64,000 nucleotides of DNA from Candidatus Omnitrophota bacterium (GTDB taxonomy: Bacteria > Omnitrophota > Gorgyraeia > Duberdicusellales > 4484-171), in NCBI GenBank assembly GCA_037146775.1, contig JBAWWL010000009.1, forward strand, positions 4,575 through 68,574. The letters are read 5' to 3'. This document shows, piece by piece, positions 1-23,300 of this stretch. Numbering within the stretch: position 1 is the stretch's first letter; every line of letters starts with the position of its first letter. Position numbers and translations under genes: made by a program. Under the pieces are notes generated by a model that saw only the letters and a list, made by a program, of their open reading frames with translations, had not been told where the DNA came from and ran no database searches.

Positions 1-2350
1 ACCAACTTAGCCTTGCCGCCTTTAGATTGATATTCTTCAATATACTTCTTCGCAATATCTCGAGCCGCATTGGCAGCGCCTAAACTTATAAACAAACGCA
101 TCCAGCTATAGGCATCTCGGGCAGTAACGTGCGCGGGCCGGCCGTTTAAGTAATGCCAGATTTTCTCCATAGAACCATTTGCATCTTGTCCATCAAGCAT
201 AACCGGAACACATAATGGGTTCTCATATTCGGTCATGACACGAACCCAGCTCTCAACGGTTTGTTTTGCATTCTGCACAGTTAAATCACCTAAATACTTT
301 AAGTTAAAATCTAAATAACCGCCTGACTGCCGGACAAATTGCACAAGAGGAACAAAAAATTGCTCATCTTGCATTTGAGCTACCGTAAGCCCACTTTTCA
401 CTAAATTAGCCGTAACATGTAATCCTCGGTATTCTTCTAATGGTTGACAAGCCTGTAGTAATTTTTTGTTAAAGGCCTCAAGTTGAACTTGAGCCTGTTG
501 TAAACTTTCCAAAACTGTTGCCGGGTTTAAGGCAGCAAATAGCCTAAAGGCTCGAATCATACTGTTGCAGCTCAAAGAATCTAAACCTCTAATATTTGTT
601 AGCGCTTCTTGCAATAACAAATTCGCTTCTTCTCTGCGGCCGACCTGGACTAACGTTTCGGCGATATGAACAAAAGCCTGCGCTCTATATCCATCAACTT
701 CGCTCCTGCCTACGCTTCTTGTTAAGTTAAGCAATCTGTCCAAAGCACCAGCATTTATCATTTCTTGGCTGATTAATTGAATAACTCTTCCTTGCAACAT
801 ACCATCATTTAACTCTGTAATAACTCTTGCCTCGTTTGTTCTGCGAAATTCAGCAGCCACTACCTGAGCCACTACCAAATATGCCTGGCTATACATATCC
901 CTATAGCTAACCTGCCTGGCCTCCTGTACTGCTTCATCAAATCTTCCTCCCTTAGCTAATTCCCGCGCTAAAGCCATATGCGCTATGGCTCTACCCTGAG
1001 AGCCGCCGGTATTATTAGGAGTCCAGCCTCGATTACTGTAATCTTGATAACCCTCTACTTTGTTTGCCGCTACTGCCAGCCGGGCAATAGCATCCAAAGC
1101 TTTACCTCTTGTTTCATCCTTAAGCTGATTGATAAATTGGAACGTTTCGTTCCATAACCCTAATTGACTTAAAATATTGGCTACCAGGATACAAAAATCT
1201 TCATCGACATGAGAAGATTCTGCTTCCCGAATAGCAGCATCAACATACTGTTTCGCTTGAGTATTGCGTCCTAATAAAATTTCTAATTCTGCTATCAACG
1301 CAAAGACTTCGCTTCTTTTATATTTCAAAGAACTGCCTATGTTCGAAAGCACATCGCGATCAAGTATTCGCCCAGCCTGTGCCTTATCGCCGGATAAGGC
1401 CAACTTCTTGGCTATATATAATAAAGTAGATAGCCGTAAATCAGTTCTCATAATACGACCTGCGCTCCCTAAAGCTTCTTGCATTTTATTTTGATCAGCG
1501 TAAGCTTCACTTAAAGAAATTAGGATAATCTCGTTAGCTTGCATTCTGGTAATCTCATCCGGCCTGTTCCTCGCGACTATCTGCCTGGCTATCAACTTTA
1601 AAACTTTTTCTTGATCATAATCATTTTTCAGAAGTTTAACAATTTTTAATACTGCTTCTGTATCTTTTTCTGCTAAACCTTCGGCTATTTTTATAAGCGT
1701 ATCTGTACGATCGTAATCCTTTGATATTTTTTGCGCTAATGCAATACCTTGATCAGCAGATATCTTTCCGGAAGTGACTAAATACACTAATAAATCTCGG
1801 TAAGAATAAATATCTTTCGCAGAATCAATACCTCTAAGTATAGCCAATGCCTCATCTGTTTTGTTTTGCTCAGCCAAACTAATTGCAAAATAAGCAAGAT
1901 AATGCCCTTTATTTTCTTTTAATCTTCTTGAGCCTGCGCTTTGAATTGCCTGCTGTACCTTTTCTATTCTATTTATAGTTATTGCTGCTCTGGCTATAAT
2001 TGCCGGGTCAGAATAAGGCTCTTCACTTTTCTCAATAGCGCTAAGCAGCATTTCCTCTGCTTCTTGGCTTTTAGCTAATTTTGCATATACCTCCGATATT
2101 CTTGCTCTTATCGGCGCCTCGTTATATCCGGAAATTCTACCCTTGGCTAGTTCTAACAAATCTTGCGCTTTCTGTAAATTTCCTAATTCAGCATACATAT
2201 CAGCCAATTCGACTAATTCATGCGATGCATTACCGTTATATCCGTCACCGCCCATTGTCACCAAAGCAAAAGCCGATAATGTTATTTTTTCTGCAATCTG
2301 GGCTCGAGCCTGAACATTATCTAAAACCGCTTGGCCTCTATCCGAAAAAG
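1..2350 (-). other. TPR/Sel1-like helical repeat region at the C-terminal part of giant gene 2 visible in the window. It continues beyond the window.
   Basis: Hand translation shows a degenerate ~34-40-aa helical repeat pattern (...EALAILRGIDSAKDIYSYRDLLVYLVTSG...). It ends DIAKKYIEEYQSKGGKAKLV at position 1. Confidence 0.45.
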
Positions 2351-5300
2351 ACAGCGCACTCGACGCCTTTCCTGACCTCAAACTCTCCTCTGCCGGGCTC
2401 TCAGTGTACTTTTCCGGATGCTGGTGAAAGTCTACATAGTTAGCATCCATAAAAGTTTTGAATTCTTCCCAAGATAAGGTGTAGCGGGAAAGATAACGCG
2501 GAAGTTCAGTTTGAGATATTTCTCGAGGTTGGGGTAAAAGATGAACACCGCGCTTTTTAGCATCATCAAGATAAATTCTTTGTTTGATTCTTACTGCTAA
2601 GAGATTTTTTCTATCATTATCTTTTTCTAAAATAATATTAAGATAATCTTCATGATAGACTCCTTCTAAAAATAAAGTTTCTTTATAGGGATACGTACGC
2701 GCTGTACCTTTACGTAAAACTAAACTCCAATTGATACTACCTAAAATAATCGGCCAGTCGTTCTGTGCGAGAGCCGCCTGTGCTTCAAAATATGCTGTTC
2801 TGAAAGCAGATGATCTTAAGTATGTCTGGCCAATTTCCTTAGCCATACTTGCCTCACCCTTCTCTACGAAGCGGAACATCCAAGAATAGACCAAAACAGA
2901 ATCTGAAAAATCACCTATTTCCGCAAATGCTTGAACGATATCAAAAGCCTTGTTAAATAATTTTCGTTCAAATAATTTTTCTGCTGCGGCTGAAGCTATA
3001 GACAGAAGCTCTGGATTACCTCTGGCGACACTTCCTAATGCAACGGCTAAATCACTAAGTAGAAAATAATCATTAGCCTTAGCAATGGCGGCGGCCAAGA
3101 AACCTGCCTGCTCCAAGTTAAACTTTGTCCGACTACTGGCTTTTTTGGCAATATGGCGCAAGGCAGACGCAAGCAATTTCATAGTTGCGTCGTCTTGAGA
3201 TTGATTTAAAATAGTAAAAATACCGTCTAGCCCCTGAGGGGTAGTTATTTCAATCCAATCAGTTTGTTGACACGCAGTAGCTAAAGCATCTGCCAGACGA
3301 TATTGTGTCGTTGGTTCTTTTTCTATTGCCAGTTTAGCGATAAGTTCTTGGTATGTTTCGCCTAACGCACTCGACGCTTTTCCTTTACCTCTTGGCCTCA
3401 AATTCTCCTCTGCCGGGCTCTCATTGTATGTTTCCGGGTGCTGGTGGAACTCTTGATAGTGAGTATCCATGAATGTTTTGAATTCTTCCCAAGATAAGGT
3501 GTAGCGGGAAAGATATTGATTGAGGTTTCTCCTGGTGATATCGCTAAAAGGTTGAGCAGGAAGCCCTGGAACTTTTCTCGCTCTGGCATCAGCGTGATAG
3601 ATTCTGTTTTTAAGTTGAACTGCCAGGAAAGATTGTTCCAAAGAATCTACTCCCACCACCACATTAATATATTCTTCAAGGTATGCTCGGTCTTTTAATA
3701 ACTGCCAATCAATACCGTCTAAGATAATCGGCCAGTCGGCTTCGGCCCTTTCAACATCACTGCTATGCAGGTTACCGGAAGAATCATGGAGATATCTTGA
3801 CGCCATATTAATAGCCGCCTGTGGTTCTCCCCAATGTATAAGCATCCGCATCCAAAATTTAAGCTCGTGCGGCTCTGAAGAATCACATGGAAGCATTTGT
3901 CGCAGATGATGTATATATACTGGGGTCGCCATTCGTTGGAATACTTCTTGCACACGAGAATAAACTTGCGGATTATTCGCCGCAATCTGGCCTAAAAGGA
4001 TCAAAATATATTCAGGAGCTAAATCTTTAGCGCGACTTAAAGCTTCAATAATTTCATCCAAATGTAAGTCCTTACTGGCTAATGAGCGATCATTGATTAA
4101 TGCTTCAATAAGTGCTTCTGCGTATTTTTCCCGCGTTTTATCGTCTTGAGTCTGTTTTAAGGCCTCAACTAAACTAAGCACCTGTGTGTGAGAAAGCTTA
4201 AGAGAACGATTTTTGCGTAATACTGCAAATACTAATAGAGAAAGAGAACGAGAAAAACTCTGGCTTTGACCAGGTTGGCTTACAAAAACAAGAAGCCGAT
4301 TCATTTGTCCTTGACTAAATGGTACTAAATGGTCTTCACCACCAAGAGCAGTATAGAGCGCATTAATAAAGCTTTCCCGTACTAACGGATCCTCGGCCTC
4401 TTCAGCGCCAACAAGAAGCCGTTCTAATTGTTCGGGATGGAAACGCGCTGAAGATCCCAAAACGCCGTCAAGACTATCACGCAAGCCAACCGCAGGACTA
4501 TTACGGAAAGTGTCAAATAAACTATCAAATTGTGCTTGCAAAAGTGGTAGTGAGTGATTTTCTCTTAAAACATCGGATAAAACAGAACAAAGGATTTGTC
4601 TTGAATGCATCGTGTTGCCTGATTCGTTGATATTTCTAACAATATGCTCAAGCAATATAGGATTCCTTGCAGCTTGACGAGAAAGCCTTTGGATACGCTT
4701 ATCACCAATCGTTGTTTTAACCATAGACATAAAATTTTTCACTGTTCTCTGAGCATTTTCTTCTTTACGTTGCCTCCACCACGATTGCACCGCAGCTACT
4801 CCCCTTTGTATCGCTTTTCTCAAACTCCAAGATCCCTGAGAGACGGGAGGCTCTTGCTGTAAAGCCGATGATGCACCAGAAGCTTTACCTTTCTTTGGCC
4901 TTAAACTTTCTTCTGTTGGGCTTTCAATATACTTTCCCGGATGCTGGTGAAAGTCTGCATAGTTAGCATCCATAAAAGTTTTGAATTCTTCCCAAGCCTC
5001 GGTGTAACGGGAAAGATAACGCGGAAGTTCTGTTTGGGATATTTCTCGAGGCTTAGGCATAGGCTGCACACCTCTGGTCTTAGCATCATCACAATAAATT
5101 CTTTGCTTGAGCCTTACTGCTAAAAGTTTTTGGACTTCTGAATCGCTATTTGTTACTACTGCGATATAGCCGTCACGATATTCTTTTCTCTCAAAAAGGC
5201 TTCTCTCAATATGATTTAGGATAATCGGCCAGTCAGATTGGCCCTTCGCGGCTTCCTTGCTTAAAAACTCAGGGTTATGAGCTAAATAAATTTCTATTGC

Positions 5301-8300
5301 TCCTTTTGCTGTCTCCTTTATGTGCTTTTCATAAACTGAAGAATTCATGATTGCCCCCAGAACAACCATAAGCTCTTCTATGGCATCAAAAGCGATTTGG
5401 TTACCCTTTACAGCTGCAGTCCTTAATGCCCAGATTGCTGAGTTTCTTATCCCTTCAGATGTTTTAACTTTAATGATTTCTTTAAAAATATCTATAAGCT
5501 CATTAATAGTAGCAATTGCGGCCTGATTTCCTCCTAAGGCTGCAGCTGCCAATCTTGTCATCACTTCCTCTTTTACTTTGTCCGAATATTGAGAGGTAAC
5601 GATTAATTTTAACGTAGCACGTATTTTTCCGCTAGGATCACCGTTGGATGAAGTAGTTATTAATTGGTTGATTGCGGCAATTCTGTCTGGATTTGTTTTG
5701 GCTTCAAAGAATTTACCTATCATTTCATCTAAGGTTATTCCTACAGCACTAGACGCTTTTCCTTTACCTCTTGGCCTCAAGCTTTCTTCTGCCGGGCTCA
5801 TCGTGAATCTTTCCGGATGCTGGTGAAAGTCTGCATAGTTAGCATCCATAAAAGTTTTGAATTCTTCCCAAGCCTCGGTGTAGTGGGAAAGACATAAAGG
5901 AAGTTGTGCTTGGGATATTTCATAAGGTTGAGGTAACGGATTAACGCCTCTGGTTTTAGCATCGTCGAGATAGATTCTTTGTTTGAGTCTTACGGCCAAG
6001 AGACTTTGTGTATTCGAATCCATATCAGCCACTACCAACAAATAATCATTAATATACTGTTGCCGAATGAGCAGTGCACCATCAATACCACTTAAAATAA
6101 TCGGCCAGTCGGCTTCAGCTCTTGCAACTTCCCTAGTTAGAAACTCTTGGTCATTGTTGTATAAAAGGGCTTTTATCGCACCTCTCGCTGTTTCTTTGAT
6201 TTTTTGAGATACTTGAGAGGCGATAATCTGCTTAAGAGCAATAATGGCAGGTAGGCTAGCCCGATGGGTAGCAAAACATAATGCCCAGATTGCTGCGTCT
6301 TTTATATGCTCAGAAGCCTGGGAAATAACAATATCTCTTAAGGTATCAGCAAGCTCCTCTATGGCAGCAATAACAGGTTGGTTGCCGTAGTAAGCAACAA
6401 CCCTTAATGCGGTAATTGCTGACACTCGCATATTTTCAGAAGCCTGGGAAATAACAATATCTCTTAAGGTATCAGCAAGCTCACCTATAGCAGCAATAGC
6501 TACAGGTTGACTGTCGCTGAAAGCAGTTTTACTTAACCCATCAATTGCCGTTTGCTTTATATATTCAGAAACTTCAGAATTAATAATTTCTTTAAGAGCA
6601 ATAATTACGGAATCGGCGCGCCTATGCCAAACGGGAGCAGACCTCACAATATCTCTCAATTGCCAGATTGCTACACTCCTCATATCTGCAGAAACCCGAG
6701 AAGTAATGATTTCCTTGAGGGCATTAATTGGGGATTGTCTATCTTTTGCAGCAGCAGCTCCTAATGCTTTAATTGCTTCTTCTTTAGTGTCTGGGGCAAC
6801 TTGAGAAAAAACAATCTCTTTTAAGGTATTAGAAAGTTCTTCTATGGCCACAATCGCGGGCTGACTGTCATGCAAAGCAGCAACTTTTAAGCCAGAAATT
6901 GCTATGTATTGAATATGGATACCTCCGGAAACTTGGGTAATAATAATCTCCTTAAGGGCATTACTGGCGGGCTGACTGCCATACCTAGCAGCAACATTCA
7001 ACGCTCGAAGTGCTGTTAATCTTATCCCCGCAGAAGCTTGGGAGATAATTATTTCTTTTAAATTATCGACAAGCTCTCCTATAGCAACAACAGAATATTG
7101 GCTCTCATACAAAACAGCATTCTCTAATGCTTCAATTGCTGCTCGTCGTATACCTTCAGGAACTTGCGAAGTAATTATTTCCTTAAGAACATCTATTGCG
7201 GGCTTTCTATCCTTGATAGCAGCGTTATACAACGCTTTAATTGCTTTAAGTTTTACTGATTCTGCATTAGTTCCTAAAACCTTATTCTTATTAATCTGCG
7301 CACTTAAAATTATTTGAACTTCCCTATGCGCTTTCCACTTCGCAATTAAACCCTTTACTATTGCTTTACCTTTTGCTAACAGCCGCTGTAAACCATTTTG
7401 CTTATCCGGTTGGGTTGTAAGCGGTGAGGAAGATGCTTTGGCCTGGCTGGTAGATAACGCGCTGGAAGCAGCTGCCTTAGATTTATCCATAGCGCTTACC
7501 ACATGCCCCACGTCACCTTCTAAGCCATGGCCCTCAACCTGTAATAATGCTATTTTTAGTAAGGTTTCTAGGTAAGCTTCTATTGACTGTTCTTCTAGAT
7601 TAATCCGGCAGGGATAATTTTTCCTTAATTTCTCGCCACCATCATCTAAGGCTACACCGGCAAACACAAAATCTATTTGCTGATGACTGGAAGCCTGTAT
7701 TTGAGGTTTACCTGTGGCAGTAACATATTTACCATGCTGAAATTGCTTAATTTTTTCTTGTAAGGCTTCACCCATCACCTGCGGCGATACAGCTTGAGCT
7801 TCATCTCCATCAGTTGCTACCACTACTAAATTTTTCACATCCTTATTACCTGCCGAAGGAAATTCAATGTCACTTAAACCATTCAAAAGTGCTTGGCCGT
7901 CAATACCGCCACCGTCAATGTTTTCTGTCCATATTCTATCCAGAGCATCAACGATAAGTTGGCGTTTAGCCTCATGGGAACGCGCGGCCTTCCATTGCTT
8001 AAAATCAAAAAGAGGGGTAAAACGCGTAGTAATCACCGCTACGGAGATATTAAGGTCGGGATTAATACGCGAAAGCTCAAGTAAGTTAGTAGCATATTCA
8101 TAAATCATATCTTCCAAGGCTCTTTGAAGTACGGGTTTGCTCGTAATACTGCCGCTGGCATCTATCACAAACATGATATTTTGTGCTAACAATTTTTCTT
8201 CGTCTTCAAATTGAGGAGCAATAAGTACCCGGTCATAATCTCCGGCAGCCAAAGCCTCAGGATCGATGTCGGTTCCTCCGTCAGACACATGTTCGTAGTC

Positions 8301-11300
8301 TGCCTCGTAATCATCATCCGTTGGCGCGATCAATTTCTTGTATCTCTCCAGCCACTTACGCGATGAAGCTGGAAGTTCCCTACGGGAAACTCTGGCCAAG
8401 CGTTCGCGCCGCTCTTGGCGCTCATCAACTACTTCTTTCTCTGGCGGTAAATCGCTCAAGTCAGTCTCAGCCACATCTATTTCTCCGATATTAATAACCT
8501 TGACATTTGGCGTAAAGAAAAGTTTTCCGCTACTCAAATCAAAATTATGGGTAGCGCCAGCCATATTCACCGATAATTGTTGTATATAATAAAACCCGCG
8601 CTGCACATCCGTGAAATATTCTGCTGGTTCATTTAAAAATAGCATACACAATTTGACAATTTCCGAATCAGACAACCCATCGATCAAGCGTACTGCTACC
8701 TGGATATTATCTTCTTCAAAATCTGTGCTGATACGGGCTTTAGCGTGCGCCTTTAAAAAAGCATTTAAAACATCCCTTGCCGCTAACGCATACGCATCAT
8801 CGTCAGCCCGGCGATTTCTGATAGCAGCAACCAAGACATCACGCACATAAGCTTTAGGATTTGGCACTAAAAGTAAAGGAAATAATGTTGACAACAATTC
8901 TCCATTTTTATGCAACCGCTCAGCCAACGCAGCGTTTTCAGGACCGATTTTTTCCGAAACTAAATGCCCAAGCTCATGCGCGGCAACTTCATATTCTTTC
9001 TCTGTATTGTTTAAAAACGATACTACTGCGTCACCTTCACTGTTGAAATACCCTAATGTTCCATCCTGCGGCCTAACCACAACAATTACCTGAGGATTGT
9101 CATTGTCGTTAAAAACCTGGCGGTATTTATCACCTAAAACATGACGCAACCGTTCGCTACCCATATTCAACATGCGTGCTATCGGTAAAGCGCTAAATCC
9201 TAAAATAGGCCGGCCGCGCCAACGAAGCACCTTGTCACGGCTGTTTTCTAGATACACTTTATTTTTTCGGGCATTGCTTTCCAGTTTGCCTAAACAAATA
9301 GCGAGCCCTTGGATGCTCGTGGTAGACTGACGATAATAATCATACAATTCGCCCACTATAGTGGCTAATTCCGAATCAACGCTCGCACAAAGCGCAACTA
9401 TTTCTCTTAAAAGCCCAGAATCAACTGCTTCTCTCGCCATTCCTACAAATGCCTTAATTAGAACTCTATTCACTAGCCCGGCATATTTTTGCTGCTGACT
9501 CAACGCAGGGCTTGCCAAAGAAAATTCTTGCATACGCGCACGTAAATCTGCTGGATCAAAAGAAACTTGTTCTCTAGCCTGTTTGGCTGCCTCTTGCCTT
9601 TCTTCTTCACTTACTGTTCGTTTTAACTTTTCTACTGGTTGTTGTGGGTAATGCTGCTGAATCTCTTGCGCTAAATCTGCCAGCGGTTTAGGCGTTATAT
9701 CCGGGACCCGTTCTACCGGAAATGCTTCATTTTCGACGGCAAAAAATCCACTGTCGGGAACTTCTTGAGTAAATTTTCCTGCCTGCTCTAATTCGCTCAT
9801 CCGCCGTGCTTCATTCTGGCGTTTAAAGTATGCTTCGCCACGGCGGTCTACTCCGTCCATGATTCCATAAGTTTCGGTTTCACTGTAACCGGTAGCGGTA
9901 ATATCAGTTTTGCTATAGCGGCTAAGCGGCTCGCTGGTATAAACTTTTAAGCATTTGCGGCTAAAAGGTGCTGGGAATGCATAACGGTTAGACCCCTTGC
10001 CGGTTCCGCCATAGCGTTCAGGAGGATTGTAGGTCAGGATAATGTCTAACTCTTTATCCAACACTACCTCTACGCTATCTCCGGCAGGAGTTATTAAATT
10101 GAATTTCCTTTCTCCGCGGGCAATCGCATCCAATATATACCATACATCACGGGTAACATTCGCCTCGTCATAAAGGATACGAATACGGTTTGAGGTCGGA
10201 TATGCGGTATTGATACGCTTACCATTGACTGTACCGCAAGAAAGCAAGAAATCAGCTACGCTCATCTTCACGGTTTGGCCAAAAGCAAGACTAACAGTAA
10301 TATGGCTATCGCGCATTTCCCGCCAGGGATTAGTGCGAACCAACGGTGTTCCTTCAGCCCTAGGAAGCATCCTGGCTAAAGTAGTTTTTCCACTGCCGGT
10401 TTCTCCGGCAACCAGAACAATACGGCTGGGGATAAATTTCCCGTTTGCGGCCACGACCGGAGTATGCGCCTGTAGTAATGCATTCAAGGCATCAAGCAAC
10501 GAATCCGCCGGATACATAAAATCATCAACGCTCATTTCTTCAAGAGGAACAGCGCGCCTTTTATTCTCTTCGTTACTGCTAAAACGATTAGCGCCTACAG
10601 CGCAAATAATATTGAGCCTTAGAGTGAGAGTATCGCCTTGACGAACAATACTCAAACCATCGGATAATTTCCTTTCTTCGTTATTGGATAGCTCCTGCCA
10701 GGAAACCTCATAGCTATCAGCATCAGTAAGAATATTTAAGCTATCGCCGCGCAAACACACTTTCATTCCATTAGCCAGTTTATAAACCCGTTCGGAAAAA
10801 TCTTCTAGATTCAGTGTTTTTGGATATACCTCTCTGGGAAGACCACGTTCCTGCTGTACGATTTCCCCCAGTAAACCGCGGCAATATTTGATAAGCTGGT
10901 TATTATCGAGCCCGCTTAAACGGCTGGCTAATATTGGCGCTAAAGCCTGTTCCAAGAAAACTTTGCGGTCTTCCGGACACATGGCTGCAAATAAAACATA
11001 ATACGTTGCTTTCATTGCATACCAGAACGGATCGTTGTGTACCGCACCACGGCCGTGGTCAATTTGTTTAAACATCTGCAATCTCAAAGCCATCTCGCTA
11101 AGATCGTGCATACTAAATTCATATCCCTGCTCAAATCGCCGCTGAGCACAAAATGCTGCAGCTTGCTGGTTAACTTCCACAAGAAACCTGGTTTCTTCCA
11201 AGGTAAGATTAGGATAAAGCTCCGACAAGACTGCGTGCGCCTCTTGGGCATTATTAAAATCAGGTAAACCGATTTTTCGCAGGCGGTTAGCAAAAGGAGA

Positions 11301-14300: not shown

Positions 14301-17300
14301 CACCATGGGGCTGCTGGCGCTTGATCCAGCCGGCTTCATCCTGGCCATCCGAGCTAAAAACATTGCTCTAGTGATACTGATGATATCAGTCTCGGAACGC
14401 TCCATACAATATGTTGCGGGGATATTGGCGGCTAAAATCGCCGGCGCATCTCTGCGCACGTTTCCGGTAAGGATAGTTATCTGGCCCTGGCCAAAATCTT
14501 TACGATTAAAAGGATTGCTCTCGTCAGTAGAACCGTATTCTAAGCCTAGACGATATGCTCTCGCCATAATATTTGGCGACAGCCACTGCATAACTTTAAG
14601 CCGCGTATCAATTTCATTAATAATATCACCGACCTTGTCGATACTGCGATTCTGCCAATAAGGAGGTTCGCGCAGCTCCACTCCGCGTTTGGCCGCTGGG
14701 TTAATTCTTAAACTGCCGCGGAAAAGCGATAATTCCGTTTCATTATTCAAAGTATACTCCTCCTGCTGGCAGCCAATAATATCTAAAAACACTCTGGCGA
14801 TAGTGGTTTTTCCGCCGCCAGGTAAGCCTTGCAAATATATTACTTTGGAAGGTGAGTAGCGGTAAACTCTGGCTAAAAGACAAAACACTTTCTCCTCGGA
14901 ATTAGTTAGAAAATAATCTTTAGGAAGAACCGCTTTTAGGGCTTCACTAAACGCCGGAACTCTTCCGTCAGTGGCCAATCTCTCGGCGACATGTTTTCCG
15001 AAACGGCTTTCTGGATCAATATCTACTTTTATACCGGCAAATACACTTGTCTTTCCGTCAGCAGAAATCTCAACTGATCCCCGGGGCGCATCGCCAACGA
15101 CACTTCGTAGGGCATTAATAACTTCTGCTTCCTGTAAATCAGAAAATTTTGCCGCCAAATGCATTGCCGCTTCCTGCCTGGCTACCTCAAGTAGCGGCAC
15201 CGTAAAATTGTTATCATTCATCCTGCCGCGCACATAATAAGCAATCTGTACGACATCCTGCACGTTAACCTTATCACCAAATACACGCGACTCTTTAATT
15301 TTTGCGTAAACATTATTTACCAGAAAGTCAGCAACTTCTGCCGTTACGCCAACTCTTAGGGCTAAATATTGCTGTATCTCTTTAGCTTCTAATTCCGCTA
15401 AATAATACCCGGCAGTTCTATCCATGAATGACTCATCGCCGATATCTGCGCTACGCTCCATGGTCAGCACTACTTGCAGGTTATCCGGCAAATTTACTTC
15501 TACTTGCTTACGCCCGCTTACGCTTTCAGCGCGGCGAAGCATAACTTTACGCTCCAGTAACATTTGATGCAAAGAAATACGTACGTCTCCTGACCAAAAG
15601 TTAGGATTCTCTAACACGAAATATACTTGTTTATCAGAATGCGCCAAAGCAAAATCTATAGCCCGCGCTATGGCGCCATCCACAAAATCCATTTCTCCAT
15701 TTGCATCCGGTTGCTCCTTACCAAACAATTCATTGCGTTGGCTAAAACCGCTGATAGTAACCGGGATTACTTCGCTATTGGGCTTACCCGCGCTATCAGC
15801 TTCTTGAGAAAGAGCATCTACTACCACATCTGTAAAATGCCCGGCTGGCACAAAAACAAATAACGGCATATCGCAGGCGCGCGCACGTTCTGCTGCTGCG
15901 CTAAGTTTGCGGTAACTCGGCAGACCGGGTACACTTTTGACCTCTTCTGCTTCCGGACCTAACTTTTGTTCATCCATTTGGAACCTGCCATAATCAAACA
16001 GTTCCAACATCTTATAACGGTTAACTTCGCTGCCGCGCTCAACACCCGCCTCTAAAAACAAATCCTTAAATGCCGGCCTTCTAAAAACTCCCTCTAGCAC
16101 CTCAGCAAACTGTTGTCTGCTTTCCCAAGGAACAAACCGGCCATATATCCCAATCGCTACCATTGCGAAATAGTCAAATACACGGGATTTGGCCAAACGC
16201 ATATCGTGTAAATACCAGCGGCTAAATATTTTCCTAAAACGCATAGATTCGCGGTAACTTACTTCACCCACTGTCTGTAACCTGTGACTTTTTCTGGCTT
16301 CAATAATACTTTCGGTCAATTCCCGGCTTAAACGTTTAATCCTTATTGCCTCATCAGTAGTAAGTTTTGAGCGCTCGCCCATCAACCGCCGGATATAATT
16401 GCGCAAAAATGACTCATGCTTCAGCGTAAGTTCTGTTCTGGTTATTTCAGGATCAAAAAGTTTTGGAAATTCTGTCCTAAACTTAGTCGGAGACAATCCT
16501 TCCCGGGCGACAGGAAATCTTGCGGAAAGATTATGATATATGCCATCAACGAATTGAGGTTTTCTAACCTTTTCCATCAAAAGCTCTTTCTGCTTAAGAC
16601 GTAATATTGCGGTAATTTCTGAGGATAACAACTCCACAATCGCAATCCATTCTCCTCGATAACTCAAGTTTCCAAAAAGCCCGTCAAAGGCAGCCACAGA
16701 AATGCTTCGCACTGCATCAACCTGTCTGGCGGCGACTAAGTCTGTAAGCCAAATAGTAATATCTTCCGGCTTTGCTGTATCATTATCCATTGCTGCTTGA
16801 GCTAACTGAACAGCTCGCGACCAATCCTGTTCATGGATAGCTTCGCTTACGGTTGCAGTTTGGCTAAGCGCACTAGAAGCTTTACTTGGCCTTAAACTTT
16901 CCTCTACCGGACTTTCGATATACTTTCCTGGATGCCGGTGAAAATCTGCGTAGTTAGCATCCATGAATTGCTTGAATTCTTCCCAATCTAAAGTATAGTG
17001 ACTAAGATATTGCTGCAAGTTAGTACGGGTTAATTCGCTAAATGGGGCGGCAGGAAGCACAATACCTCGGGCTAAAGCATCGGCGTAATAGATTCTATTT
17101 TTAAGCCTTACTGCAAGCAGAGCTTGTTCAGCAGGATCAGTATTGACTACCACCGCCGCATAGTCGTCGCGGTATTGTTCCTGCATCAATAATTGTCTGT
17201 TAATACTGTTTAAGATTACCGGCCAGTCGAATTCATCTTTTTGGACTCCTACAGTAAAATCTGTCTCTGGATGTTTATTTAAATATTCTTTCACTATTGA

Positions 17301-20300
17301 CGCGGCCTCAACAAGAAAACCTTTATTGGAGAATGAACGTATCCAGGAATATACTTCAGAAGGAGACAACCATTGAGGATCTGCTTCCAATATTGGATTA
17401 ACTATTGAAACTATAGCGCTTCTGGCAAGTCCTCTATCTAATAAAAATTCTATAGCCTGCTTAGCATAAGACAAATTCTTCTGGCTACCGCGACTTGCCC
17501 GGCCTAAAATAAAAGCAAGCTCATGAGCCACACCAGCTGAACTTGTTTCCTTTAAAGCAGAGAGAGTTTCTTCTAAAATCGAGCTGTTTGTGTTTCTGGC
17601 CTTTTCTAATACATCACGAATATTCTGAAGAACACCAAGATCATTAACCCTTTCCATGGTAGCGACTAAATCTTTTATTTGCGTGCTAGTAAGCGCCATG
17701 GAACGTGTATTCTCTAATATCTGCTGCAATGCCCAGGCAAACGGCACGATAACATTCTGGTCGCTGGATTCTGTAATACCACTCACTAATTTATTAAAAA
17801 ATACATAATTATTGCTTGCTATCGCCCCTATTACTTTTGAAAATTCCCTCCGACTGCGAAAATCTAACTTTTTTTGCCTTAAAATATCAAGTATACGGTC
17901 TGCCTCACTCTCGCTAAGCTGTGAAGCCATACCACGAAATGCATCACTAAATGCATCAAAAAGTTTCATCCGCATAGGATCGTTATCTATTCCGACTCCT
18001 ACCTCACCTATGGCGCTGTATATTTTTTCTGCCAGCATAGGGTTATCAATCATCGCCCGCCTTAACGCGGTTATACTCGATTTATGCGTAGCGTCATCTT
18101 TTGCTGTCTTTATTGCATCCAAAAGCTGCTGAACTTGTTGTGTTATTCTCCAATCGTCACTCGTCGGGCTTGAAGCGCCTTGAGTTTTTATCGTAGATTC
18201 TGGCACTGCGCTCGATGCCTTCTCTGGTCTTAATTTTTCCTCTGCCGGGCTCATCATGAATCTTTCCGGATACTGGTGGAAGTCTGCATAGTTAGTATCC
18301 ATAAATTGTTTAAACTCTTTCCAACCCAAGGTATAGCGACTAAGATAATGCTGCAGGTTGGTTAGGGTTATTTCGCCAAAAGGAGTTACTGGAAGGCTAA
18401 CCCCCCTGACTAAAGCATCAGCATGATAGATTTTGTTTTTAAGTTGTACCGCGAGTAGAGTTTGTTCGGTAGAGTCAGCATTAGCTACTACTGCCGAATA
18501 AACTATTGCTGTATAGTCATGATAATACTGCCCTTGCGTGAGCAAGTTACGGTCAATACCAGATAAAACAATCGACCAATCATTTTCTTGTTTATCAGCT
18601 TCTTTGACTAAAAAGTTGCTATACGCTAAAAATACTTTTATCGCTTCAGTCGCTGCACGTTTAATAGCTTCAGAAGCCTGTGAAGTAATAATCCCTTTTA
18701 AAGTTTCAAGAAGTTCTTCTATGACAGTAACTGCAGCCTGGCTGCCTTTAGAAGCAGCATTACTTAATGCTGAAATTGCCGCTTTTTTTATCCTTTCCGA
18801 ACCATAATTAGTAATGATATTTTTTAGAATTACAGTAAGCTCTCCTATGGCACTAATCGCAGCTTGACCGTCATCATAAGCAACAGCATCCAAGCCTTCA
18901 ATTGCCGTTGCCCTCGTATTTTCTGCAATCGCGGAAGTGACAATCTCCTTAAGCGCGTCGACAGCAAAATTGCTACCACCAGAAACCGCGGCTCTTAAAG
19001 CGTTTATTGCTGGAACATTGATAGTTTCTGAGTTCTGAGAAATAGCTATATCTTTAAGCGCATTAACTGCAGATTGATTATTTCGGCTGGCAGCGATCTT
19101 TAATGCTTGCATTGCTGTCTCAACGAAATTTTGGTGTGAATTTTGCAAATTTAGAGACATAATCATGCCCTTTAATGTTGCGGAAACTTTTCCGATAACA
19201 GTAGCGGCAACCAACGATTGACTATTTTCAGCCACAGAGGCAGTACGTATTAATTCCACAATCACCTCAATCTTTTTTGCATCTGTATCAGCTTCATTGA
19301 ATTGTCTTTCCCACTCTGCTTGTGTTACTTCAACTGCACTGGAAACTTTACCTTTTGGTCTCAAGCTCTCTGTTTCCGGACTCTCGGTGTACTTTTGCGG
19401 ATGCTGGTGAAACTCTGTATAGTGAGCATCCATGAATTGTTTGAATTCTTCCCAAGATAAGGTATAGCGGCTGAGATACAAAGGAAGCTGTATCTTAGAT
19501 ATCTCTATAGGTTCAGGTACAGGATTAACACCTCTCATTTTCGCATCATCACAATAGACCCTTTGCTTAAGCTTAACGGCTAAAAGTTTTTGAGTTACTA
19601 AATCACTATTCGTTACCACTGCGAGATAGTCTTCAAGGTATTGTTGTTGCAAGAGAATACTTTTATCGATATGATTCAGGATAAGCGACCAGTCGGATTG
19701 GTCTTTAGCAGCTTCTTTAGCTAAGAAATCAGGGCTATGTTCTAAGAATATTTTTATCGCTTGAGTTGATATTTTTTTTATTTGCGCAGAAGCTTGAGAG
19801 GCAATAATACCTCTTAAAATATCGATAAGCTCACCCACAACGTCAGTAGCAGCCTGACTGCCCCCAGCAACAGCATTCCCTAAGTTATATATTGCTGATT
19901 GTTTGATATTTTCTGAAACTCTAGAAGTAATTATTTCTTTAAGAGTATTGGCAGCAGCTTGACTATTTCCAGCAGCACCAGCTCCTAATGCTTGAATCAC
20001 TGTTGACTTTAAATCTGCTGAAGCTTGACCAAAAATGATTTCTTTTAAATTTGTAACCAGTTCTCCTATAGCGCTAATGGTAGGCTGATTGCCTCGATGA
20101 GCAGCGGCTCCTAGTGTTTGGATTGCCGATTGCTTTAAAGCTTCAGAAAACTGGCCAGTGATGATTGCTTTTATATTTGTAGCCAGCTCTCCTACAGCAA
20201 CAACAGATGGTTGATTGCCCATAAAAGCAGCGACTCCTAGTGTTTGGATTACTGCTTGTTTTAAAGATTCAGAAGACTGGCCAGTGATGATTGCTTTCAG

Positions 20301-23300
20301 ATTTGTAGCCAACTCTCCTATAGCATCCATGGCAGGTTGACGGCCGCGAGCGGCAGCCATATTCAATGCTAAGATTGCTTCTTGCTTTACAATCTCGGAA
20401 GTTTCAGAGGTAATTATGTCCTTAAGCGCATCAATAGCAACCTGACCACCTCGATGGGCAGCGGCTGCTAATGCTCCGACTGCTGATTGTTTTATGGTCT
20501 CGGGAATTTGCGAGGCAACGATTTCTTTAAGTGCATCGACGGCAAGCTTACTACCTTCCGAAGCAGCAGCTGCTAATGTCAGGTTTGCTGCTTCTTTTAT
20601 GCCCGCTGAAGCTTGACCGGTAATGATATCTTTTAGCTTATTAGCCAGTTCTCCTACGGCGCCAATGGCGGTTTGACTGCCTTGAAGAGTAGCTTTTTTC
20701 AATCTATTAATTACCTCAATCTTCTTTATTTCTGTATCCGCTTCACCAAATTGTCTTTCCCACTCTGCTTGTGTTACTTCAATAGTGCTAGAAGCTTTTC
20801 CTCTTGGCCTCAAACTCTCATCCGCTGGACTTGCAGTATATTTTTCTGGATGCTGGTGAAAACCTAGATAGTAGGTATCCATGAATTCTTTAAATTCTTC
20901 CCAAGATAAGGTGTAGTGGCTAAGATAATACTGCAGGTTGGTTCTGGTTATTTCGCCAAAAGGAGTTGCTGGAAGTCTAACCCCCCTAGCTAAAGCATCG
21001 GTATGATAGATTCTATTTTTAAGTTGGACCGCTAGAAATGATTGTTCTAAAGAATCAACAGCTACCACCACGGCGACATAGCCATCACGGTATTGTTCTT
21101 GCATGAGCAAAGCTCTGTCGATGCTATTTAAAATTATCGGCCAGTCAACCTGCTGGTTGGCAATTTCATGGCTATGTAAATCACTTGCAGAATTTTTCTC
21201 AAGATATTCTTTAGCTAGTTTTTTAGCTTGATCAATAAAACCTCGCTCCATGAATAAACGTACCAGAGAATACATCTGAGAAGAATCAAAAGTTAGAGCT
21301 TTTGCTACGTTGACAAGGGCTGAAGCAAGTATATATAAAATATCGTTAGAAAGGTTCGCTAAGGCTTTTAAAAAATATATCGATAGTGCAGAATTATTAA
21401 CAAGCGCCTGGCTAACAGTTGCTGCAATAGTACCGCGAGTATCTTCAGAGTTATCCCCACGCTTGATAGCTGTAAGAAGAATATCAAGCTGTTCAGGCGT
21501 AAGCTGAAGAGTCCTTGCGTCACATAGTGCTAAATAAATTATCCCGGCTGCATCAATACGATTCTTATCATTAATATCATTGCGTTTTAATTCCTCAAGC
21601 GCCGACGGCAAAAGTTCGTGGTTATTAAACAGCGCCCTGCTAGCTGCTAGAGCGATATTGTTGTGCGCATCGTTACCGCGCTCCTCACTTTTCAAAGCAG
21701 CGACAAGAACACCAAACTGTATGGGCGTCAATTTGAGGCTTGAATTGTTATACAATGTGCGGTTGAGTAAACGAGCAATTTCTTGGTGCGTATTCTTTGA
21801 GTTATCTGGGCGTTGAAAGACTGCAAAGATACTACGCAAATGGTCATGGGTAGGCTTAATCATCCGAGCATCACATAACGCCAGATCTATCGCTTTTATA
21901 AAATCATAGCGGTTTTTATCAGTGATATCATCACGCTTTATTTCATCGAATGCCAAAGATAAAAGTCCTAGATTATTCACTAGTACCAAATGTATTGTTT
22001 CAGCAATTATCTCAATGGTCTTCTTAGAATTATTTGGTTGTTTTATGGCAGAAAAAATAATACTCAACTGCTCCGGTGTTGTCACAACAACGCTATGGCC
22101 ATTTAATATTTGACTGAGCGCCAAAGTAACTTGCGCCCGCTCAGTTTCATCTTGCGCCTGGCTAAGCTTATCAAAGTTAGTATCGAGTTCCCCCTGAGCA
22201 GTTAATGCCGACGATACCACCGGCCCCTTCACTTGGGCTATTGTTTCCTGGACTTTCTCTTCTAACCCCGAGCCCGTATCCAGCATCACCTCTAAATTAA
22301 AGCTCTTGCCTTTATTTGATGAGATTACCCTACTCGGATCATTGGTGATGGTAAGCGCGCTGGAAGCTTTGGTAAAATCACAGCCACCGGAGTAGTAGCG
22401 GCGGTTGATGTTCTGCTGGGTATTGGTATCGAATTCGTCTTTGATGTAGTTGTAGACGCCTTGTCTGTAGGCAGAGAGGTATTGTTTGTAGATCTTCTCT
22501 TTGATTTGTTTATCGGGGGTATCGATACCTTTAGTCTTTTTCCGGTTAACATAGATCTGACCGACTAAGCTTTCTTTGAGCTGCTTTTTAAACCATACGG
22601 AAAGAATTAAAGAGTTGTAGACCTGCCGTAAAGGAGCGAAGTTTTTGCCTTGATTGACTTCTTTTTCGATCTCAGGCAGGATGAGTTCTTTTAAGACTTC
22701 AGAGGAAACCTTGTTTAAGGCTTTTACTTTGTCTTCTTTGATCTTGGAGGTGCTATATTCCTGGTTATTGAGGTTGTTTTTGAGTGCCAGGTAGTCTTCT
22801 TCCAGCATGACTTTGAGCTTACTCTCTACCACAAAGGCGCTTGAATCTTCCTGATAGACCACCGCTTTATCCGGGACAATCCAGATCTTGTTGAAGGTAT
22901 TAATCGGTAGTTCAGTGGTACCATAGAGCTGGTAGACTTTCTTGTATACCTTCTCCCAGAACTGTTTACCTAGAGGACTCTCCGGATAAGTGATAGAAGC
23001 CATTAATTGTTTTAAGATGTAGTCTTCGGCAAGTAGGTCTTTACCCAGCTCCGTAATACCCAGTTCCTGGGGGATGACTCGTTCTTTTTCATAGGGTGAG
23101 AGGTTAACCCAGAGGTCTTCTTCCGGTATGGTTAAAGAGGCCAAGAAGTGCTTGATCAGTTTCTCTGAACTCTGTTTTAGTTCTTTTTGGCTAGAAGTGC
23201 TGTCTCCGCTATCCAGGATAAAGTCAAACTTGAAAGGCTCATCAGGATAGACTTTGATTCCTTTTAAAACCAGAGGGTTGAAAGCCGGGCTTACTTCCAA

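What the first reader, a model, noticed from the sequence alone, without database searches (positions are those of the whole stretch)
2350..21160. Novel ~130-aa module repeated eight times in giant protein 2
Eight copies share the invariant features DWP(I/V)IL, LAV(Q/R)LK(N/Q)RIY, (Y/C)LS(R/H)YTLSWEEFK(T/Q)FMD, HQHPEKY and a Lys/Gly/Ser-rich tail (RPRGKGKASSA). They are at 21160-20781, 19710-19340, 18590-18205, 17240-16870, 6120-5745, 5240-4865, 3740-3365 and 2770-2350. They are also recognisably conserved at the nucleotide level (ttcttcccaagataaggtgtagcgggaaagata...), so they arose or were homogenised recently. Four copies bracket the HEAT arrays on the N-terminal side of the AAA core and four on the C-terminal side. 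I do not recognise the motif set as any described domain. The HQHP/WEEF signature could be a small binding or catalytic unit presented repeatedly along a solenoid.
Basis: seen in the sequence. Interest (0 to 1): 0.78.

Follow-up and report, generated by a model that had tools for sequence, protein, structure and literature searches.

The report
New helical end-domain of giant-protein cassettes
A giant protein of an uncultivated Omnitrophota bacterium carries eight copies of an undescribed ~120-residue helical domain, each closing a helical-repeat array just before a flexible linker, so the giant protein appears to be built from repeated "array, end-domain, linker" cassettes.

Summary
The minus-strand ORF that starts at 23456 and runs off the left edge (at least 7,818 aa) holds exactly eight copies of a ~120-aa module, within about 15 nt of the stated coordinates. 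The copies are 50-68% identical. Four lie N-terminal and four C-terminal to an AAA_5 / HExxH / VWA core.

AlphaFold2 gives a confident all-helical domain (pLDDT 84). It predicts the module packs rigidly on the last HEAT repeat (cassette pTM 0.79). The Lys/Gly/Ser tail is disordered.

That tail is not part of the module. Its [AV]SSA[LVI] motif also marks linkers that follow no module, nine times in the neighbouring giant protein.

"Recently homogenised" is mostly wrong, because dS is 0.8-3. However, exact runs of 39-70 nt show short gene-conversion tracts among copies 5-8.

My best reading is a terminal cap and docking handle for each solenoid cassette, not an enzyme. HQHP is not conserved in relatives.

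The parts
3..23456 (-). Giant protein 2 (gp2). At least 7,818 aa lie in the window. The ATG at 23456 overlaps the stop of giant protein 1 (gp1), and the ORF runs off the left edge.
   Evidence: Open frame and start codon. Pfam hits HEAT_2, AAA_5 and VWA.
20805..21164 (-). Module copy 1 (aa 765-884), subtype A
19356..19712 (-). Module copy 2 (aa 1249-1367), subtype B
18225..18599 (-). Module copy 3 (aa 1620-1744), subtype A
16887..17246 (-). Module copy 4 (aa 2071-2190), subtype A
5772..6128 (-). Module copy 5 (aa 5777-5895), subtype B
   Evidence: 70-nt exact run shared with copy 6
4896..5252 (-). Module copy 6 (aa 6069-6187), subtype B
   Evidence: The AlphaFold2 model of the cassette aa 5903-6195 has pLDDT 84.2 and pTM 0.79.
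3393..3755 (-). Module copy 7 (aa 6568-6688), subtype A
   Evidence: 41-nt exact run shared with copy 8
2373..2777 (-). Module copy 8 (aa 6894-7028), subtype B, with a 16-aa insertion after the first helices
3..119 (-). Pre-module helix pair (AYSWMRLFISLGAANAARDIAKKYIEEYQ...). The same element precedes copies 1, 4, 7 and 8, so a ninth module probably lies just beyond the window edge.
   Evidence: Sequence comparison; weak BLAST hit at aa 7800-7818. This is inference.
19782..20759 (-). HEAT/ARM array between copies 1 and 2. The other arrays are at 18657-19307, 6177-7289 and 5307-5714.
8187..16874 (-). AAA core. Walker A motifs are at aa 2877, 3585 and 4351. A conserved HELGH (zincin-like) motif is at aa 4827 (nt 8964-8978).
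   Evidence: AAA_5 at 29.8 bits against a cut-off of 22. Weak Midasin AAA-lid hit, E = 0.02. Motifs. HExxH is conserved in P0001, P0007 and P0022.
7761..8180 (-). VWA domain with the MIDAS-type DxSxS motif (DASGS, aa 5099)
   Evidence: Pfam VWA at 28.7 bits against a cut-off of 23.8; motif
2352..2366 (-). One of ten [AV]SSA[LVI] linker motifs in gp2. The others are at 3363-3377, 4860-4874, 5742-5756, 7455-7469, 16866-16880, 18204-18218, 19332-19346, 22203-22217 and 22353-22367.
   Evidence: 10 observed against 0.18 expected, with a maximum of 3 in 2,000 shuffles. The linker has pLDDT below 50.

Best explanation
The module is a previously undescribed, autonomously folding all-alpha domain of about 120 aa (about 150 aa with its preceding helix pair). 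It is specific to a rare family of membrane-anchored giant proteins built around an AAA_5 / HExxH / VWA core.

It forms the C-terminal end-piece of every alpha-solenoid cassette. It packs on the last HEAT/ARM-type repeat and is always followed by a disordered linker that carries a lineage-specific "punctuation" motif, [AV]SSA[LVI] in this protein.

I infer that it caps the solenoid and gives each cassette the same docking handle. That handle would bind one shared site, most plausibly on the protein's own AAA/VWA core or on another copy of the module. It does not act as an enzyme.

Shown: the eight copies, their position in the cassette grammar, purifying selection, the lack of any known relative, and the restricted distribution. 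Predicted: the fold and its packing on the array. Inferred: the docking role and the partner.
For: - Eight copies at 114-203 bits each, none in gp1.
- dN/dS of 0.10-0.42 with dS of 0.83-3.1, so the copies are maintained by selection.
- AlphaFold2 on the module alone gives pLDDT 83.9 and pTM 0.80, all helical.
- AlphaFold2 on the whole cassette (HEAT array 4 plus module 6) gives pLDDT 84.2 and pTM 0.79. Blocks across the array-module junction (residues 141-190) average 86-95 and the tail is below 50.
- Family-wide invariant residues are W8, K49, Y53, Y84, W88, F91 and H103. D7, A45, M95, Y99 and F102 are conserved at 90% or more. Most of these are aromatic core residues.
- All 45 module instances in 21 proteins are followed by a disorder-rich linker. 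In the sequences read, they follow helical arrays of at least two different repeat types.
- A complete 6,703-aa relative (P0001) has the same layout: 4 modules, AAA core, HExxH, VWA, then 3 modules. Its modules are only 24-32% identical to copy 1.
- Copies cluster by protein in the family tree. That is expected if all copies of one protein co-evolve with one partner or exchange sequence.
- A stand-alone ORF of at most 297 aa carries the module at its C-terminus, so the module is an autonomous unit (L004).
Against: - No partner has been identified, and no structure coordinates were available to look for a conserved surface patch.
- The packing on the array rests on one AlphaFold2 run with an 8-row alignment. 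Three of the five models scored lower (pLDDT 75-76).
- Clustering of copies by protein could come from gene conversion or lineage-specific amplification alone. Conversion tracts are seen.
- A 120-aa, six-helix domain is larger than a simple capping repeat needs to be.
- Invariant K49, H103 and near-invariant D7 could form an active or metal-binding site.
Confidence: 0.5

Rival explanations
1. Polyprotein-processing handle. The giant protein is cut at the punctuation motifs, perhaps by its own conserved HExxH domain or by a signal-peptidase-like enzyme. The module is then the common C-terminal domain of each released cassette. It would direct cleavage, or re-association with the AAA/VWA core, which the same motif also delimits.
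For: - [AV]SSA[LVI] occurs 10 times in gp2 and 9 times in gp1, against about 0.15 expected.
- It sits after the N-terminal domain, after modules 2-8 (module 1 has the variant KASSTI) and after the VWA domain.
- P0001 has a different motif, PKPEATDM, 8 times against 0.001 expected, at the same architectural places. P0020 and P0022 use AKDGG there.
- HELGH is conserved upstream of the VWA domain in four family members.
- The literature says cleavage of Omnitrophota giant proteins is suspected but the cleavage points are unknown (10.1101/2023.11.21.568195).
Against: - There is no evidence of cleavage.
- The motif works as punctuation without any module throughout gp1, so the module is not needed for it.
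- Conserved linker motifs could instead be modification sites or flexible hinges.
- The HExxH region has no Pfam match.
Confidence: 0.2
2. Small catalytic or metal-binding unit built around the HQHP and WEEF motifs.
For: H103 and K49 are invariant, and D7 is conserved at 90% or more, across 34 family sequences. The fold has no known relative, so a new active site cannot be excluded.
Against: - Only one His is conserved. The first H and the Q of HQHP, and the EE of WEEF, vary in relatives, which read for example FHKDP and PWDVF.
- Conserved positions are mostly aromatic.
- Eight catalytic copies interleaved with scaffolding arrays have no precedent that I know of.
- No similarity to any enzyme family was found.
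Confidence: 0.1
3. The C-terminal half of the module is a DivIVA/GpsB-type domain that binds membrane or peptides.
For: The family profile hits the Bacillus subtilis GpsB N-terminal domain at E = 0.008. The alignment over 52 residues has only a one-residue gap and pairs Y-K...F...Y..FHQ.
Against: - Only the B. subtilis sequence variants are hit. Eight other DivIVA/GpsB PDB sequences are not.
- The hit leans on FHQ, which is not conserved in that family.
- Profile-profile comparison with a six-sequence DivIVA/GpsB alignment gives 7% probability.
- hmmscan of 34 members finds no DivIVA match at E up to 10.
Confidence: 0.03
4. The module has no function of its own. It is a passively co-amplified spacer, homogenised by gene conversion.
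For: Copies cluster by protein, and conversion tracts exist.
Against: - dN/dS is 0.10-0.42 at saturated dS.
- Seven residues are invariant across proteins that share only 19-41% identity.
- The layout is conserved between gp2 and P0001.
- A stand-alone version exists.
Confidence: 0.05

Closest known systems
Capping repeats or terminal domains of HEAT/ARM alpha-solenoids
   Same: All-helical. Sits at the C-terminal end of each array, and is predicted to pack on the last repeat with junction pLDDT of 86-95.
Midasin (Rea1/Mdn1) and MoxR-VWA remodelling ATPases, as a comparison for the host protein
   Same: AAA_5-type ATPase modules followed by a VWA domain with a DxSxS MIDAS motif, flanked by large helical regions.
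   Different: - Only three Walker A motifs were found.
- phmmer gives no PDB hit for the core.
- The protein has an N-terminal membrane anchor, an HExxH domain, and eight or more copies of the module.
- From my own knowledge, none of these features is known in midasin.
Omnitrophota giant proteins ("Archaeovorins", West-Roberts et al. 2023; Nielsen and Lui 2026 catalogue)
   Same: Same phylum. The window's genes are annotated as Candidatus Omnitrophota. Giant, membrane-anchored, HEAT-rich proteins with AAA_5 listed among frequent domains. Repeats have diverged at the nucleotide level, as that catalogue reports.
   Different: Term searches and the sections I read of these papers turned up neither this module nor any linker punctuation motif. 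gp2 has one TM segment and no glycosyltransferase or SecA-type domains. gp1 next door is the multi-enzyme type, with GT1, PCMT and HD.
GpsB/DivIVA N-terminal domain
   Same: Helix-loop-helix with a Y...F...Y..FH pattern; marginal profile hit at E = 0.008.
   Different: hhalign probability is 7%. There is no RGY motif and no coiled-coil continuation, because the helix ends at H-x-x-P. I do not consider it a member.

Membership tests
Any Pfam-A or NCBIfam family | A match to a curated profile at or near its gathering score | tested here: not met
   No family at E up to 10 for copy 1. Only scattered single-member hits (best E = 0.003) among 34 members. NCBIfam gives nothing below E = 0.097.
DivIVA/GpsB N-terminal domain (PF05103) | Profile-level homology to the family, not to one sequence only | tested here: not met
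   hhalign probability 7.3%. Only B. subtilis GpsB variants are hit. No Pfam DivIVA hit.
DivIVA/GpsB N-terminal domain (PF05103) | Conserved R-G-Y loop and a long dimeric coiled-coil helix | tested here: not met
   gp2 copies read S-[RH]-Y and relatives G-x-Y. The predicted helix ends after 17 residues at H-x-x-P.
HEAT/ARM repeat | Repeated helical hairpins of about 40 aa that match HEAT/ARM profiles or folds | tested here: not met
Midasin / MoxR-VWA type ATPase (host protein) | AAA_5-type ATPase domain | tested here: met
   PF07728 at 29.8 bits against a cut-off of 22.
Midasin / MoxR-VWA type ATPase (host protein) | VWA domain with a MIDAS motif | tested here: met
   PF00092 at 28.7 bits against a cut-off of 23.8; DASGS at aa 5099.
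Midasin / MoxR-VWA type ATPase (host protein) | Six concatenated AAA modules forming one ring (midasin, dynein) | tested here: inconclusive
   Three Walker A motifs. Midasin AAA-lid hit only at E = 0.02, below the cut-off. No PDB sequence hit.

The most novel reading that the evidence does not exclude
The giant protein is a self-encoded multi-subunit machine written as a polyprotein. Lineage-specific punctuation motifs ([AV]SSA[LVI] here, PKPEATDM or AKDGG in relatives) would be processing sites. They delimit the N-terminal domain, each solenoid cassette and the AAA/HExxH/VWA core. The new module would be the common C-terminal handle through which every released cassette docks back on the ATPase/VWA core. 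That would explain why all copies in one protein co-evolve. If true, it would provide the first predicted cleavage map and assembly logic for Omnitrophota giant proteins.
Probability: 0.15. Interest if true: 0.75.

Novelty: new variant of a known kind. Interest (0 to 1): 0.5.

Why it matters
Giant Omnitrophota proteins are largely unannotated. Published work says it is unknown whether, and where, they are cut into pieces (10.1101/2023.11.21.568195; PMC10066038).

This locus shows a clear grammar: a helical array, then a conserved end-domain, then a linker with a punctuation motif. A 6,703-aa relative with only 24-32% module identity to copy 1 shares that grammar.

The grammar gives three things. 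It defines a new domain family that can be used to annotate and segment these proteins. It predicts domain boundaries for structure prediction. It also names specific candidate processing sites that proteomics could test.

The module on its own is a domain of unknown function. That is common in metagenomic proteins, so the interest is moderate.

Tried and rejected
- **Word-indexed protein search.** Searching with the 8-copy alignment and with the 34-sequence alignment found nothing. Yet the exhaustive HMMER search found 22 proteins that are in the same collection. I treat the two empty results as a tool limitation, not as absence.
- **GpsB/DivIVA lead.** Raised and rejected by the profile-profile comparison and the lack of family-wide hits.
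- **P0002 as an independent lineage.** I first read P0002 as showing that the two module subtypes predate speciation. Searches show it carries the same locus-tag prefix (WCI77) and a neighbouring accession range, so it almost certainly comes from the same MAG. I withdrew that inference. P0002 is simply a further copy in this genome.
- **Genome scan with window-type patterns.** It found no relative. A second scan with family-type patterns found three loci. The metagenome scan found one.
- **AlphaFold database fold library.** Not installed.
- **Extra degenerate copies.** None were found. The only other signal is an 8-bit match in the shared N-terminal domain of both giant proteins, which I regard as noise.
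- **AAA core against PDB sequences.** No hit.
- **P0021.** Its short repeats match only part of the profile (positions 65-103, about 9 bits each). I did not count it as a family member.
Full report
**1. What is in the window**

The minus strand carries two tandem giant ORFs.
- gp1 runs from 42052 to 23456 (6,198 aa).
- gp2 starts at the ATG at 23456, which overlaps the gp1 stop. It stays open to the left edge, giving at least 7,818 aa.

To the right of gp1 on the + strand, at higher coordinates and so upstream of it in the direction of transcription, lie ordinary bacterial housekeeping genes: RuvB, ScpA, TrpRS, IF-2, NusA, ProRS and a CpaF-type ATPase. Exact look-ups place these genes and gp1 in an NCBI MAG annotated "Candidatus Omnitrophota bacterium". 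Its locus-tag prefix is WCI77 and the contig is 133,192 bp. gp1 is MEI8350111.1, named "glycosyltransferase".

**2.

BLASTP with copy 1 finds eight copies in gp2, at 44-61% identity and E of 1e-36 to 1e-59. It finds none in gp1. HMM searches with the 8-copy profile and with a 34-sequence family profile give the same eight and no degenerate extras.

The quoted motifs are near-invariant, not invariant:
- DWP[IV]IL in 6 of 8 copies
- HQHP in 6 of 8
- WEEF in 7 of 8
- LK[NQ]RIY in 5 of 8

37 columns are invariant among the eight copies.

The placement is as described. Four copies lie upstream of an AAA core with Walker A motifs at aa 2877, 3585 and 4351. That core has an AAA_5 hit at 29.8 bits and a conserved HELGH at aa 4827. 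Four copies lie downstream of a VWA domain (aa 5093-5232) that carries a DASGS MIDAS motif.

The last 39 residues in the window repeat the helix pair that precedes copies 1, 4, 7 and 8. A ninth copy therefore probably lies just outside the window. This is inference.

**3. What the module is**

*No known relative.*
- Pfam gives nothing for any of the 8 or 34 members at E up to 10, apart from scattered single hits.
- NCBIfam gives nothing.
- The family profile against all PDB sequences gives only a marginal hit to B. subtilis GpsB, at E = 0.008. I tested this lead and rejected it. Other DivIVA/GpsB structures are not hit, and a profile-profile comparison gives 7% probability.

*Predicted structure.*
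- AlphaFold2 predicts a confident all-helical domain, with pLDDT 83.9 and pTM 0.80.
- Foldseek finds none at E up to 0.001.

*Distribution.*
- An exhaustive HMMER search of 1.84 billion representative proteins finds only 22 with the module.
- Of the four with an organism name, three are labelled Candidatus Omnitrophota and one "Deltaproteobacteria bacterium". Most are fragments of giant proteins on short contigs.
- Among 185,579 species-representative genomes, only three loci encode it. Two of those are in Omnitrophota MAGs.
- One metagenome contig carries a stand-alone ORF of at most 297 aa that ends just after the module.

*Family signature.* The conserved pattern is D-W-x-[IVL]-[IV]-[LI] ... 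A-x3-K-Q-R-x-Y-R ... Y-x-G-x-Y-K-L-P-W-x2-F-x2-F-M-D-x-N-Y-D-x-F-H-x2-P-x2-F. The invariant residues are W8, K49, Y53, Y84, W88, F91 and H103. Within HQHP only the second H is invariant; the P is conserved in most relatives but not all.

**4. Context: a cassette grammar**

Every module follows a helical array. In gp2 five arrays are HEAT-type (Pfam HEAT_2; nucleotide and protein repeats). The others are different helical repeats. In P0001 the arrays are yet another ~36-aa repeat type, but the same module ends them.

All 45 module instances in 21 proteins are followed by a linker rich in disorder-promoting residues, 65% against 50% overall.

Its [AV]SSA[LVI] motif occurs 10 times in gp2 and 9 times in gp1, which has no module. 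About 0.15 occurrences are expected, and the maximum in 2,000 shuffles was 3. In gp2 the motif follows the N-terminal domain, modules 2-8 and the VWA domain. Module 1 is followed by the variant KASSTI.

P0001 is a complete 6,703-aa relative with the same order of parts: 4 modules, AAA core, HELGH, VWA, then 3 modules. It carries a different motif, PKPEATDM, 8 times at the same architectural places, against 0.001 expected. P0020 and P0022 use AKDGG there.

**5. Evolution of the copies**

*Overall divergence.* Pairwise dS is 0.83-3.1, near saturation, and dN/dS is 0.10-0.42. Taken whole, the copies are old and under purifying selection. "Recently arose or homogenised" is not supported as a general statement.

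*Subtypes.* The copies fall into two subtypes, {1, 3, 4, 7} and {2, 5, 6, 8}. The second has 98% bootstrap support. The subtypes do not follow position along the protein.

*Local conversion.* Some pairs share exact nucleotide runs far longer than codon usage and amino-acid identity predict:

| Pair | Exact run (nt) |
|---|---|
| c5-c6 | 70 |
| c7-c8 | 41 |
| c5-c8 | 39 |
| c6-c8 | 39 |

None of 500 simulations reached these lengths. In the C-terminal half of these pairs, 80-88% of codons at identical residues are the same codon, against about 40% expected. This indicates short gene-conversion tracts among the C-side copies. The quoted 33-mer is exact only in copies 7 and 8.

*Across the family.* Copies cluster by protein rather than by position. 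That fits lineage-specific amplification, long-term concerted evolution, or co-evolution of all copies with one partner. P0002, which groups with the gp2 copies, carries the same WCI77 locus-tag prefix and so comes from the same MAG. It gives no independent date.

**6. Mechanism**

Best explanation (confidence 0.5): the module is the terminal cap and common docking handle of each solenoid cassette. It binds one shared site, plausibly the protein's own AAA/VWA core or another module.
- Shown: repetition, position, purifying selection, and absence from known families.
- Predicted: the fold and its packing on the array.
- Inferred: the docking role and the partner.

Rivals:
- A role tied to polyprotein processing at the punctuation motifs (0.2).
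- A catalytic or metal site built on D7, K49 and H103 (0.1).
- A passive spacer (0.05).
- A DivIVA-like domain (0.03).

**7. Comparison with what is known, and novelty**

The host protein works like a midasin/MoxR-VWA type remodelling ATPase in its AAA_5-plus-VWA core, but membership is unproven. Only three Walker A motifs were found. There is no PDB sequence hit. The midasin AAA-lid hit is below its cut-off.

The papers on Omnitrophota giant proteins that I searched and read in part report HEAT repeats and AAA_5 among frequent domains. They state that functions and cleavage points are unknown. My term searches and the sections I read turned up neither this module nor any punctuation motif.

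I rate the module as a new domain family within the known phenomenon of modular giant Omnitrophota proteins, that is, a new variant of a known kind. Interest is moderate at 0.5. Most of the potential value lies in the cassette grammar and the candidate processing sites.

Noticed in passing
gp2: 22353-22367, 22203-22217, 19332-19346, 18204-18218, 16866-16880, 7455-7469, 5742-5756, 4860-4874, 3363-3377, 2352-2366. gp1: 40949-40963, 38441-38455, 37706-37720, 33677-33691, 32735-32749, 27629-27643, 27554-27568, 26015-26029, 24533-24547 (all minus strand): A linker "punctuation" motif, [AV]SSA[LVI], occurs 10 and 9 times in the two giant proteins against about 0.15 expected. It falls between structural units. 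For example, one gp1 site at aa 5342 lies between the GT1 and PCMT domains. Relatives carry different motifs, PKPEATDM or AKDGG, at the same architectural positions. These are candidate processing or modification sites. Published work says the cleavage points of such proteins are unknown.
   Followed up: partly
42052-40980 versus 23456-22385 (minus strand): The first ~1,070 nt of gp1 and gp2 are about 99% identical, including an 812-nt exact run. The first 300 aa are 100% identical and cover the TM anchor and the N-terminal domain. Similarity then decays to background. This is either a very recent duplication or conversion of the N-terminal domain between the two adjacent giant genes, or a possible MAG assembly problem.
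   Followed up: partly
8964-8978 (minus strand; aa 4827-4831 of gp2): An HELGH (HExxH, zincin-like) motif sits about 270 aa upstream of the VWA domain. It is conserved in P0001 and P0007 (HELGHF) and P0022 (HEFGH) at the same place. The region has no Pfam match. It may be an embedded metalloprotease.
   Followed up: partly
23456-42052 (minus strand), gp1: gp1 is a multi-enzyme giant protein with Glycos_transf_1, PCMT-type methyltransferase and a weak HD hit. About 5,000 aa have no Pfam match. It shares gp2's N-terminal domain but has no module.
   Followed up: partly
3-119 (minus strand), left edge of the window: gp2 is cut by the window inside the helix pair that normally precedes a module. 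P0002 (MEI8349789.1, WCI77_06505, a partial protein on another contig of what appears to be the same MAG) ends with a HEAT array, one more module and a C-terminal domain. It may be the missing C-terminus of gp2 or a paralogue.
   Followed up: partly
L004 720-1613 (+), metagenome contig Ga0124853_1427657: A stand-alone ORF of at most 297 aa carries the pre-module helix pair and one module, and ends 13 residues after it. It lies on a 2-kb contig that did not look like this window's genome by eye. The module therefore also exists outside giant proteins.
   Followed up: partly
P0006, P0012 and P0014 (relatives, not in the window): In these fragments the module and linker are followed by a conserved domain, CGNIHGLY.RR.DG.KTIYVNR...AKFLDGHET[FM]HAL, that contains a second HExxH-type motif. 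I did not analyse it.
   Followed up: no
132-2339 (minus strand; aa 7040-7775 of gp2): A TPR-like region of about 740 aa follows module 8 (TPR_12 at 29.5 bits, just under its cut-off). It is a third kind of helical array in the same protein.
   Followed up: no
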